A DNA stretch of 64,000 nt. Origin: an uncultured virus (IMG/VR IMGVR_UViG_3300030116_001948). Its lineage: Duplodnaviria > Heunggongvirae > Uroviricota > Caudoviricetes. Positions 13,581 to 14,299 of the stretch are shown here, piece by piece; position 1 is the first letter of the stretch; every line of letters starts with the position of its first letter. The notes below the pieces were generated by a model. It was given only the letters and a program-made list of their open reading frames with translations. It had not been told where the DNA came from and made no database searches. The stretch is taken from the IMG/VR virus record IMGVR_UViG_3300030116_001948, positions 1 to 64,000 of that record; one strand, given 5' to 3'. The translations under genes were made by a program, and so were the position numbers.

Positions 13581-13980
13581 TAAAGAAATTAAAAGACGAT
13601 TCAAAGAACAAATGACTTGGGCTGGTGAACAGTTAGTATCATGTAAAGACTTAGAATCGTTTGAGTTAAGAGATGCAATAGTCAATAAGAGTATTGATTT
13701 TGCATCAAAAAGATTGGATGATGGTAAGATAAAATACTTACATCAAGTACCAATAACTTTGCAAGAATGTTTAGATGAAAATCGTAACAATTTAGCAGAG
13801 ACAATAGAAGAAGTTATAGATGCATTAATATACATAATAGCTGAGGAGATTTTACAAACTGAGCTTGAATGTGAAATAGCATCTAGATACTTAAATAAAG
13901 CTAACGCATATCTATACTACGCTTTGTTTTTCCTGATGGTAGCAGATATGCATGACAGTAAAGGAAAAGAAAATGAGTAA
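13567..13980 (+). CDS. Putative all-alpha (MazG-like) nucleotide pyrophosphohydrolase
   Basis: RL..G...Y...ETIEEVIDALIY (EExxD) motif; homolog at 57255-57485. Confidence 0.5.
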   Translation: MESNNKEIKRRFKEQMTWAGEQLVSCKDLESFELRDAIVNKSIDFASKRLDDGKIKYLHQVPITLQECLDENRNNLAETIEEVIDALIYIIAEEILQTELECEIASRYLNKANAYLYYALFFLMVADMHDSKGKENE

Positions 13981-14299
13981 CGAAGTAAAAGGTGTTGCAT
14001 ACAATAATGGTGATGGTAGATTCGTAAGAAATACTGCCTTCCTAGAAATATTGGGTGCAGATGGTCAGCCTAGATTGACCACAGTGGGTCAGTTCATGGA
14101 GTACTTACGTGAGAACAATGTAAATGTTCCAAGTAATGCACAAATTACTATGAACTTACAAGAGGTAGATGCCACAGCAACTCTTGTACCACAAACATCA
14201 TCTACTAGATCAGAAGATGAAGGGTTTGTATTCTTATCATTTATGAGAGATGATAAGACTGGTGGCAAGATTGCATTTGAAGAATATTTAAGTGCATAA
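13973..14299 (+). CDS. Ubiquitin-like (beta-grasp) modifier precursor
   Basis: 108 aa from MSNEVK. TVGQFMEYL helix, ITMNLQEV, final strand FVFLSF, then KTGG followed by the 10-aa tail KIAFEEYLSA; lies upstream of the E2/JAB/E1 genes. Confidence 0.7.
   Translation: MSNEVKGVAYNNGDGRFVRNTAFLEILGADGQPRLTTVGQFMEYLRENNVNVPSNAQITMNLQEVDATATLVPQTSSTRSEDEGFVFLSFMRDDKTGGKIAFEEYLSA

What the first reader, a model, noticed from the sequence alone, without database searches (positions are those of the whole stretch)
13973..14299. Ubl precursor with a masked di-glycine
Seen: the GG codons at 14261-14266 follow a hydrophobic final strand (FVFLSF) and a short polar linker (RDDKT), and are followed by a 10-aa extension. 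The pattern strand-strand-helix(TVGQFMEYL)-strand(ITMN)-strand fits a beta-grasp fold with an insertion (PQTSSTRSEDEG). Inference: the neighbouring JAMM enzyme removes the tail to give a 98-aa mature modifier, which would control when conjugation starts. The ORF-track start at 13952 is probably wrong because the SD favours 13973.
Basis: partly seen in the sequence, partly recalled or inferred. Interest (0 to 1): 0.7.

Follow-up and report, generated by a model that had tools for sequence, protein, structure and literature searches.

The report
Phage ubiquitin-like tag with removable tail
A small gene of an uncultured phage most likely encodes a ubiquitin-like tag whose reactive Gly-Gly end is capped by ten extra residues, and it sits in a conserved four-gene set with the enzymes that would trim, activate and attach it.

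Summary
ORF 13973-14299 encodes 108 aa. Gly97-Gly98 lie at 14261-14266, followed by a 10-aa tail, and the start at 13973 is the better one.

In 22 of 22 aligned relatives (down to 26% identity) and 21 of 21 upstream small ORFs, GG is kept, while the tail is 0, 1, 3, 4, 10 or 31 aa and unrelated in sequence.

The gene order small protein, large protein, JAB, E1 held in every related viral locus with enough DNA. JAMM motifs were intact in 18 of 18 and the E1 loop in 17 of 17.

The 641-aa neighbour, which no family library names, folds (pLDDT 77) into a domain whose only structural matches are E2/UBC, UEV and RWD proteins (Z about 5). It has an invariant Cys.

Two parts of the reading were not supported. 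The beta-grasp fold of the window's own protein was not confirmed, because the model was poor and matched nothing. The idea that the tail times conjugation is weakened, because tail-less relatives keep the JAB.

Masked glycines trimmed by a JAB are already known in bacterial Bil systems. What is new is a phage-borne, sequence-divergent version. This scan has noted similar phage cassettes on other DNA.

The parts
13962..13965 (+). Shine-Dalgarno-like AGGA, 7 nt before the ATG at 13973
   Evidence: Read directly from the sequence.
13973..14299 (+). Candidate ubiquitin-like modifier precursor: 108 aa, predicted mature form residues 1-98
   Evidence: ORF. Homologs. Alignments A6/A7 with GG invariant.
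14261..14266 (+). Codons of Gly97-Gly98, the predicted activation and conjugation end
   Evidence: Invariant in 22 of 22 aligned family members.
14267..14296 (+). 10-codon C-terminal tail (KIAFEEYLSA), predicted to be cut off
   Evidence: Relatives carry tails of 0, 1, 3, 4 or 31 aa with unrelated sequence. Within the close clade 6 of 10 tail columns are invariant, against 77 of 98 in the body.
14314..14344 (+). 14-bp stem-loop just after the stop codon, between the Ubl gene and the next gene
   Evidence: RNA fold -22.6 kcal/mol, z -4.94, 0 of 200 shuffles as good. There is no U-tract and the terminator scan does not call it. Hairpins of different sequence sit at the same place in L004 (z -2.8) and L024 (z -3.1), and are weaker or absent in L037 and L018.
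14366..16291 (+). 641-aa protein: N-terminal helical region, central E2/UBC-like domain (about residues 137-386) with invariant Cys337 (codon 15374-15376) after a conserved HP motif (303-304), and a variable C-terminal third
   Evidence: No Pfam, PHROG, PADLOC or NCBIfam hit. Invariant columns in A8. AF2 model of residues 1-420, pLDDT 77.4. VIA-align matches to E2 enzymes at Z 4.8-5.5 over 125-131 residues and to UEV/RWD domains.
16275..17165 (+). JAB/JAMM metallopeptidase, 296 aa: Glu27 and HSHHTMSAFWSGTD (residues 86-99; 16530-16571)
   Evidence: Pfam Prok-JAB E 3.6e-8, 33.7 bits, cut-off 25. Motif found by script in 18 of 18 related loci.
17147..17815 (+). ThiF-type E1-like adenylating enzyme, 222 aa: GCGAIG loop at residues 27-32, invariant Cys173 and Cys181
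   Evidence: Pfam ThiF E 2.4e-23, 83 bits. Alignment A9. Matches the E1 part of CBASS Cap2 models in PADLOC.
17824..18180 (+). Small ORF with a CxxC...CxxC C-terminal part; a possible accessory gene, not universal
   Evidence: conserved in L004 as a 63-aa ORF. No such ORF in L018. No family hit.
13567..13980 (+). 137-aa helical protein whose stop overlaps the Ubl start; conserved upstream neighbour in the long-form clades only
   Evidence: 133-144-aa counterparts in L023, L026, L028, L029. No family hit.

Best explanation
ORF 13973-14299 is the modifier of a phage-encoded four-gene ubiquitin-like conjugation cassette, in the order Ubl, E2-like, JAB, E1.

The protein is made as a 108-aa precursor. 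A peptidase, most likely the cassette's own JAB metallopeptidase, cuts after Gly98 and removes the 10-residue tail. The ThiF-type E1 then adenylates the exposed Gly98 carboxylate. The modifier passes as a thioester to Cys337 of the large E2-like protein, and from there to lysines of targets that are still unknown.

The JAB probably also takes the modifier off again. This would explain why it is kept in relatives whose modifier is made ready-to-use.

What is shown: the gene, the invariant GG, the variable tail, the strict gene order, intact JAMM and E1 motifs, and an E2-like predicted fold with an invariant Cys. What is inferred: the beta-grasp fold of this protein, cleavage after G98, who performs the cleavage, thioester transfer, and protein conjugation.
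For: 1. GG is invariant while everything after it varies. It is kept in 22 of 22 sequences of alignments A6 and A7. Tails are: none in 5; K in 2; Y; DMR; DAR; KNK; EAK; DVE; KIAR; KEVK; LYLY; 10 aa in 5; 31 aa in 1. The sensitive whole-library search found only this family.

2. A small ORF with GG lies directly upstream of the large gene in 21 of 21 viral loci that have upstream DNA (22 examined; L040 has none).

3. Downstream, a JAMM motif is intact in 18 of 18 loci with a complete large ORF. The GCGAIG E1 gene follows in 17 of 17 with enough DNA.

4. The JAB and E1 are recognised by Pfam above the cut-off.

5. The large protein has invariant P304, C337, G339, W364, T372 and P374. Its model has pLDDT 77.4. 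In the search of 48,161 PDB chains, all 17 of the 50 listed rows that reach beyond residue 134 are E2 enzymes (15) or RQC/LTN1 chains (2). The best are 1yrv_A Z 5.5, rmsd 4.2, 127 aligned; 3fn1_B Z 5.5, 131 aligned; 4ddg_A Z 5.5. UEV and RWD domains appear in the second look.

6. Seven of 10 short-form relatives give sub-threshold Pfam ThiS hits (best E 0.002, 19.1 bits, cut-off 22.5).

7. A distant cassette on a Nitrospirota MAG contig (E1 34% identical) carries, at the same position, a tandem di-Ubl that passes the ThiS and SAMP2 cut-offs (E 1e-12, 48.8 bits; 28.1 bits). Each repeat ends in EGG. Its middle protein aligns to A8 at the HP...C.GN motif (E 5.7e-4, probability 29.5%).

8. There is precedent. 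In BilA the conserved Gly is followed by up to 9 non-conserved residues, and BilC (a JAB) pre-processes it (passages). Twelve BilA homologs have 2-9-aa overhangs (passages).
Against: - The window protein has no family hit.
- Its only model is weak (pLDDT 63.6) and matches no ubiquitin-like structure. Foldseek found nothing at E <= 0.001. VIA-wide gave 2 unrelated chains at Z >= 2. Of Foldseek's 70 best chains, 0 reach Z 2.
- Profile-profile links from the long forms to the short forms, and to the ThiS-type di-Ubl, are not significant (probability 6.7%, 7.4% and 2.1%).
- None of the 8 long-form relatives hits ThiS.
- The E2 assignment rests on Z about 5, below the tool's caution mark of 8. Foldseek against PDB found nothing. 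The position of Cys337 relative to the E2 catalytic Cys could not be checked. The His of the HP motif is Phe in the L024-type clade.
- The JAB is retained where there is no tail, so trimming cannot be its only role and may not be its role at all.
- No E3 and no target is known.
Confidence: 0.62

Rival explanations
1. Sulfur-carrier system. The small protein is a ThiS/MoaD/QbsE-type carrier. The JAB removes the tail, as recalled for QbsD on QbsE, or releases a product, as recalled for Mec+ on CysO. The E1 adenylates Gly98, and a thiocarboxylate feeds sulfur into a cofactor, tRNA or DNA modification made by the phage.
For: The E1's best NCBIfam rows are ThiF/MoeB models, all far below cut-off (best 82 bits against 159). 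The short-form relatives' only family signal is ThiS. No E3 is present. Iyer et al. describe ThiS/MoaD-JAB-E1 sulfur clusters (passages of PMC1779556).
Against: The E1 is 222 aa with only the ThiF domain and no rhodanese. No sulfurtransferase, desulfurase or thiolation enzyme was found among the 8 neighbouring proteins scanned. A large protein with an E2-like predicted fold and an invariant Cys is strictly linked to the cassette, and sulfur-carrier systems do not have one (introduction passage).
Confidence: 0.1
2. The small protein is not a modifier. It has another role (for example a regulator or a target), and its GG matters for other reasons. The JAB and E1 would then act on something else, such as host CBASS cGAS-like conjugates as a counter-defence.
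For: The fold is unconfirmed and there is no family hit. The JAB and E1 resemble the CBASS Cap3 and Cap2 models of PADLOC.
Against: A GG that stays fixed near the very C-terminus while the tail changes length from 0 to 31 residues is hard to explain otherwise. Seven loci end exactly at GG. The positional counterpart in L047 is a ThiS-family di-Ubl above cut-off. Gene order is strict.
Confidence: 0.12
3. The tail is never removed in this clade. The 108-aa protein is a capped, non-conjugatable variant, such as a decoy or inhibitor that occupies the E1 or JAB, while the tail helix has a binding role of its own.
For: Within the close clade the tail keeps a K.AF..YL.A core, with 6 of 10 columns invariant. 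It is modelled as an amphipathic helix. The scan has noted tail-masked second Ubls in other phages (unchecked AI note).
Against: It is the only Ubl-like gene of the cassette at the conserved position. The JAB is intact. Tails of comparable length are trimmed in Bil.
Confidence: 0.08

Closest known systems
Bil systems (BilA Ubl, BilB E2, BilC JAB, BilD E1); operon classes 6c/6d of Iyer et al. 2006 (PMC1779556, Table 1 passages; 10.1101/2023.09.26.559546 and 10.1101/2023.09.04.556158, passages)
   Same: - Four separate genes for Ubl, E2, JAB and E1, in the same order as the letters BilABCD.
- A conserved C-terminal Gly that is terminal in some members and followed by a short non-conserved overhang in others.
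- A JAB shown to pre-process the Ubl in Bil.
   Different: - This cassette is carried by a phage genome (89.8-kb virus record), not a bacterial defence island.
- The family is nearly absent from 185,579 species genomes, with 4 loci found, all on MAG contigs.
- The Ubl and the E2-like protein match no family model.
- The E2-like protein is 480-695 aa, with a long helical N-terminal region and large insertions.
- The E1 is a minimal 212-226 aa.
- Direction of use is unknown: in Bil the host tags the phage.
QbsE/QbsD and CysO/Mec+ sulfur-carrier systems (recalled, no call; related clusters described in PMC1779556)
   Same: A small GG protein with extra C-terminal residues, a JAMM peptidase and an E1-like adenylating enzyme are encoded together.
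   Different: There is no rhodanese or other sulfur-transfer enzyme here, and an E2-like Cys protein is strictly linked.
Archaeal Caldiarchaeum Ub operon with Rpn11-type processing of a Ub precursor (PMC6043591 and PMC5654768, abstracts seen in the listing)
   Same: A JAMM enzyme of the same operon exposes the GG of a precursor before E1/E2 action.
   Different: That system has a recognisable ubiquitin, a classical E2 and a RING E3. None of these is recognisable by sequence here.
Type II CBASS Cap2 (E2-E1) and Cap3 (JAB)
   Same: The E1 and JAB give their PADLOC hits to these models (E1 down to 5.7e-15, JAB 5e-5).
   Different: The E2 and E1 are separate genes. A free small GG protein takes the place of the CD-NTase C-terminus. 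No CD-NTase was seen among the neighbours scanned.
PRTRC cassette (NCBIfam TIGR03735/TIGR03736)
   Same: A JAB-like protein A and a ThiF protein on mobile elements. The rows are weak: E 0.0085 and 8.8e-6.
   Different: Scores are far below the cut-offs (15.7 against 101.8 bits; 25.2 against 144.75 bits). No ParB was seen among the neighbours.

Membership tests
Ubiquitin-like modifiers (beta-grasp; ThiS/MoaD/Ub superfamily) | Beta-grasp fold | tested here: inconclusive
   The AF2 model has pLDDT 63.6, and its strand-strand-helix...strand-strand order is compatible. It gave no structural match. No second fold job was available.
Ubiquitin-like modifiers (beta-grasp; ThiS/MoaD/Ub superfamily) | Conserved C-terminal Gly or Gly-Gly at or near the end, tail not conserved | tested here: met
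   GG is invariant in 22 of 22 sequences. Tails are 0-31 aa and unrelated.
Ubiquitin-like modifiers (beta-grasp; ThiS/MoaD/Ub superfamily) | Sequence match to a curated family model (Pfam ThiS PF02597 or similar) above cut-off | tested here: not met
   The window protein has no hit, and 0 of 8 long forms hit. Seven of 10 short forms hit ThiS, but below the cut-off. Only the distant L047 di-Ubl passes.
Ubiquitin-like modifiers (beta-grasp; ThiS/MoaD/Ub superfamily) | Cognate E1-type adenylating enzyme encoded alongside | tested here: met
   ThiF PF00899 E 2.4e-23 at 17147-17815, linked in 17 of 17 loci. Activation itself was not tested.
Bil-type Ubl-E2-JAB-E1 conjugation cassette | Separate genes for Ubl, E2, JAB peptidase and E1 in one operon | tested here: met
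   Gene order. The E2 is assigned by predicted fold only (Z about 5).
Bil-type Ubl-E2-JAB-E1 conjugation cassette | E2 with a catalytic Cys in a UBC fold | tested here: inconclusive
   Cys337 is invariant in 23 of 23 sequences. UBC-like matches have Z 4.8-5.5. Superposition of the Cys could not be checked, and Foldseek against PDB found nothing.
Bil-type Ubl-E2-JAB-E1 conjugation cassette | Sequence homology to BilA-D families | not tested
   The PADLOC 2023 library gave only CBASS E1-E2 and JAB models. No Bil sequences were at hand for a direct comparison.
Bil-type Ubl-E2-JAB-E1 conjugation cassette | Bacterial anti-phage defence context | tested here: not met
   The cassette lies in a virus record of 89,793 bases, CheckV 100%, between the terminase block and replication genes. 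Relatives are on viral contigs.
   E27 and HSHHTMSAFWSGTD at residues 86-99. Pfam Prok-JAB is above cut-off.
Sulfur-carrier systems (ThiS-ThiF, MoaD-MoeB, QbsE-QbsC-QbsD) | Sulfur donor or transfer module (rhodanese, desulfurase, or the consuming synthase) in the cluster | tested here: not met
   The E1 has only the ThiF domain. None of the 8 neighbouring proteins has such a domain.

The most novel reading that the evidence does not exclude
A family of uncultured phages carries its own complete, catalytically competent ubiquitin-like conjugation cascade: a precursor Ubl, a giant E2, a JAB trimming and deconjugating enzyme, and a minimal E1. The family is essentially restricted to viruses and mobile elements. 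The virus would use it early in infection to tag host or phage proteins, possibly as a counter-measure to host defence. In one distant relative an ArdA anti-restriction gene sits inside the cassette. This would be the mirror image of the bacterial Bil defence.
Probability: 0.45. Interest if true: 0.8.

Novelty: new variant of a known kind. Interest (0 to 1): 0.6.

Why it matters
Ubiquitin-type tagging in prokaryotes has so far been shown as a bacterial weapon against phages (Bil, type II CBASS). A phage-borne cassette with all four activities raises the question of what a virus tags and why. It is sequence-divergent enough that no family library names two of its four proteins.

The natural series of tails (0, 1, 3, 4, 10 and 31 residues on one invariant GG) is a ready-made experiment on precursor processing by JAB enzymes. 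The cassette is compact, about 3.9 kb, and can be tested by co-expression.

My literature searches found no paper describing a phage-encoded Ubl-E2-JAB-E1 set. The library lacks most subscription journals, and I did not see the supplementary tables of the Bil papers, so this absence is weak evidence.

Tried and rejected
- **Complex prediction.** E1 (A9) with Ubl residues 1-98 (A6) gave the verdict 'no answer' (median score 0.31 against a mark of 0.32, controls 0.00). It counts neither for nor against binding.
- **Structural searches with the Ubl model.** Foldseek against PDB found nothing at E <= 0.001. The top non-significant rows (E 2-8) include nsp3a Ubl1, ATG12, ATG8 and LC3. VIA-wide gave only 2 unrelated chains at Z >= 2. 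The second look gave 0 of 70 at Z >= 2. The model is too weak to decide.
- **Sequence routes for the Ubl.** All of these found nothing usable: tblastn against 50,697 phage records, the ESM Atlas, profile searches of PDB sequences with A4 and A7 (E. coli MoaD at E 0.23, not significant), and a search for PF02597 in the phage's own genome.
- **Profile-profile links.** Long against short forms, and against the L047 di-Ubl, were all non-significant.
- **The 641-aa protein.** Pfam on all 13 members, PDB sequences, the Atlas and Foldseek against PDB all found nothing.
- **crAss-like phage link.** The E1 is 28-32% identical in 79 records, mostly Bacteroides and Flavobacterium phages. A JAB lies next to it in L021 (21.6 bits, below cut-off). 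The two genes upstream there show no profile similarity to this Ubl or E2-like family. BFVD gave only weak rows to crAss-like proteins (probability 0.60, E 0.13-0.18). I do not claim it is the same cassette.
- **P0011 and P0012.** These 1523- and 1883-aa proteins matched in many short stretches. I did not examine them and left them out as probable low-complexity matches.
- **Locus searches.** Two searches found no loci.
- **Rejected idea.** The hairpin after the gene is not an intrinsic terminator: it has no U-tract and the scan does not call it.

Full report
**What is at the coordinates.** The window belongs to a virus record of 89,793 bases that CheckV rates complete. Its terminase is at most 27% identical to any deposited phage.

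ORF 13973-14299 (+) encodes 108 aa. Codons ggt ggc at 14261-14266 give Gly97-Gly98, ten more residues follow, and then comes TAA.

The start at 13973 is better than the ORF-track start at 13952, for these reasons:
- AGGA lies 7 nt upstream.
- The ATG overlaps the stop of the preceding ORF (ATGAGTAA).
- Every divergent relative begins MSN or MSE at this Met, while the upstream extensions differ.

**Is the GG special?** Close homologs (88-94% identical, 8 proteins) all keep KTGG plus a 10-aa tail.

A search of 1.84 billion representatives with a profile found only two more distant members, of 93 and 90 aa. They end ...KTGG plus DMR or DAR. A third ends KTGG plus KIAR. I left out two long multi-stretch hits, P0011 and P0012, without examining them.

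Homologs of the neighbouring 641-aa protein led to 23 viral loci. A script looked at 22 of them. L044, a 135-nt match, was not included. Of the 21 loci with upstream DNA, all have a small ORF directly upstream with GG at or near its end.

In the two alignments (A6, 12 long forms down to 26% identity; A7, 10 short forms of 67-104 aa) GG is an invariant column. What follows it is nothing (5 sequences), 1, 3, 4 or 10 residues, or 31 residues, with no shared sequence. Several of these loci come from the same or near-identical contigs, so the number of independent lineages is smaller than 22; I see about six clades.

**Context.** Downstream of the small gene come three genes:
- a 641-aa protein at 14366-16291;
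- a JAB at 16275-17165 (Pfam Prok-JAB E 3.6e-8, above cut-off), with Glu27 and HxHx7Sx2D intact;
- a 222-aa ThiF-type E1 at 17147-17815 (E 2.4e-23).

In the related loci the gene after the large ORF has the JAMM motif in 18 of 18 cases with a complete large ORF. The next gene has the GCGAIG loop in 17 of 17 cases with DNA. The E1 alignment has invariant Cys173 and Cys181 in a PCNAKATSYCSN block. That these are the catalytic or crossover-loop cysteines is my inference.

**The 641-aa protein.** No library names it and PDB sequences give nothing.

An alignment of 23 sequences shows invariant G23, P24, T61, R65, W66, K67, G69, R125, P304, C337, G339, W364, T372 and P374. His303 is replaced by Phe in one clade. 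The pattern HP..S...C.G[ND]...W recalls the HPN...C...W core of E2 enzymes; that resemblance is from my own knowledge.

The AF2 model of residues 1-420 has pLDDT 77.4 and pTM 0.68. It shows a helix, a four-strand meander (194-235) and helices after Cys337.

Structural searches gave the following:
- Foldseek against PDB found nothing at E <= 0.001.
- The exhaustive VIA-align search listed 50 rows. The 33 rows confined to the first ~167 residues (most to 18-133) are generic helical bundles and coiled coils. All 17 rows that reach beyond residue 134 are E2 enzymes (15, including UBE2F, UbcH5b, UBE2E1, UBE2S, UBE2O, Ube2K and Pex4) or RQC/LTN1 chains (2). Z is 4.8-5.6 with 102-164 residues aligned (125-131 for the single-domain E2 chains).
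- The second look added TSG101/Vps23 UEV domains and a kinetochore RWD chain at Z 3.4-4.5.
- In BFVD, six unnamed viral proteins match at E 1e-20 to 8e-15. Weak rows include a viral 'Type II CBASS E2 domain' protein (E 0.10).

The Z values are below the tool's caution mark of 8, and I could not check where Cys337 falls. I therefore rate 'E2-like conjugating enzyme' as probable, not shown.

**Is the small protein ubiquitin-like?** Direct evidence is thin. The AF2 model from 9 near-identical sequences has pLDDT 63.6. The order of its elements (two strands, a helix at TVGQFMEYLR, then two strands ending in FVFLSF) is compatible with a beta-grasp. However, the conserved ITMNL block is unmodelled, and no structure matches.

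Indirect evidence is better:
- Seven of 10 short forms give repeated but sub-threshold ThiS hits.
- A distant cassette on a Nitrospirota MAG contig contains, in order: a tandem di-Ubl, a 512-aa protein with HPHVS...C.GN, a JAB, an ArdA anti-restriction protein and an E1, with a probable tyrosine recombinase next to it. Its E1 is 34% identical to the window's.
- That di-Ubl passes the ThiS and SAMP2 cut-offs, and both of its repeats end in EGG.

Profile-profile comparisons between the clades align the right segments but are not significant.

**Mechanism.** The simplest reading is a Bil-like cascade: precursor, JAB cut after G98, E1 adenylation, thioester on Cys337, then target lysines.

The precedent comes from passages of two preprints:
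- In type II Bil the conserved Gly is followed by up to nine non-conserved residues. A structure shows that one extra residue blocks adenylation, and BilC cleaves a Ubl fusion.
- In type I Bil, 12 homologs have 2-9-aa overhangs, and the DUB cleaves Ubl-GFP.

Iyer et al. defined operon class 6d as Ubl, JAB, E1 and E2-like on mobile gene clusters.

Seven related loci encode a ready-made GG end; in the six of them with downstream DNA (all but L039) the intact JAB and E1 follow, while L039 has no complete E1, its ORF there is cut by the locus end. The JAB therefore has another role, most simply deconjugation, and tails look like drifting appendages. Within the window's own clade the tail is fairly conserved (6 of 10 columns, against 77 of 98 in the body). 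A clade-specific role cannot be excluded.

**Rivals.**
- A sulfur-carrier system is disfavoured by the absence of any sulfur-transfer module and by the linked E2-like protein.
- 'Not a modifier' is disfavoured by the behaviour of the GG.
- A permanently capped decoy remains possible at low odds.

**Distribution and novelty.** The family is nearly confined to viral contigs. A scan of one genome for each of 185,579 prokaryote species found 4 loci, all on MAG contigs, two of them short and phage-like.

The E1 alone has 28-32% relatives in 79 phage records, mainly crAss-like Bacteroides phages and Flavobacterium phages, where a JAB lies beside it. The two upstream genes there show no detectable similarity.

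My literature searches found no description of a phage-encoded Ubl-E2-JAB-E1 set. The library is incomplete, and I did not see supplements.

Earlier unchecked notes of this scan describe GG-ending ubiquitin-like proteins with Cys partners, and JAB/E1 genes, in other phages. The kind of thing has therefore been seen before in this scan, on other DNA.

**Verdict.** It is a new, phage-borne and sequence-divergent variant of a known kind of system.

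Noticed in passing
window 14314-14344; L004 about 8267-8300; L024 about 3223-3246: A strong stem-loop sits immediately after the Ubl stop codon in three lineages, with unrelated stem sequences (z -4.9, -2.8, -3.1). It has no U-tract. It may set the ratio of Ubl mRNA to enzyme mRNA, or stabilise a 3' end. It is weaker or absent in L037 and L018.
   Followed up: partly
L047 2711-6597 (Nitrospirota MAG contig): A distant version of the cassette. It carries a tandem di-Ubl (both repeats end EGG, with one residue after the second). An ArdA anti-restriction gene (Pfam E 2.8e-34) is inserted between the JAB and the E1, and a probable tyrosine recombinase lies next to it. 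This hints at a mobile element and a link to counter-defence.
   Followed up: partly
L035 3026-3340: One relative has a 31-residue tail after KTGG (GITVV...GLNQ), three times longer than the window's. It is the extreme of the natural tail series.
   Followed up: no
L021 (PQ006092.1, crAss-like phage) 2565-6696: The same order of gene sizes occurs next to the primase gene: a 253-aa protein, a 433-aa protein, a JAB (401 aa, Pfam 21.6 bits, below cut-off) and an E1 (284 aa, annotated 'E1 enzyme family protein'). The first two genes show no profile similarity to this family. In related Bacteroides phage records the E1 is annotated 'thiamine biosynthesis protein'.
   Followed up: partly
window 17824-18180; L004 11978-12169: A small ORF after the E1 has a conserved CxxC...CxxC C-terminal part (zinc-ribbon-like). 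It is present in two clades and absent in L018. It could be an adaptor, or unrelated.
   Followed up: no
window 13567-13980: A 137-aa helical protein whose stop overlaps the Ubl start. It is conserved upstream of the long-form Ubls (L023, L026, L028, L029). In short-form phages an unrelated conserved protein of about 50 aa (MKCIK...WK.KVRDSK) takes its place. No family hit.
   Followed up: no
L048 2318-7051 (Anaerolineales MAG contig): A GC-rich relative with a 546-aa ATPase-like ORF, an E2-like protein (HPHV...C.GN), a JAB and an E1. After the E1 comes a 126-aa ORF with a sub-threshold ThiS hit (E 0.001) that ends AG plus two residues. The gene order differs from the phage cassette.
   Followed up: partly
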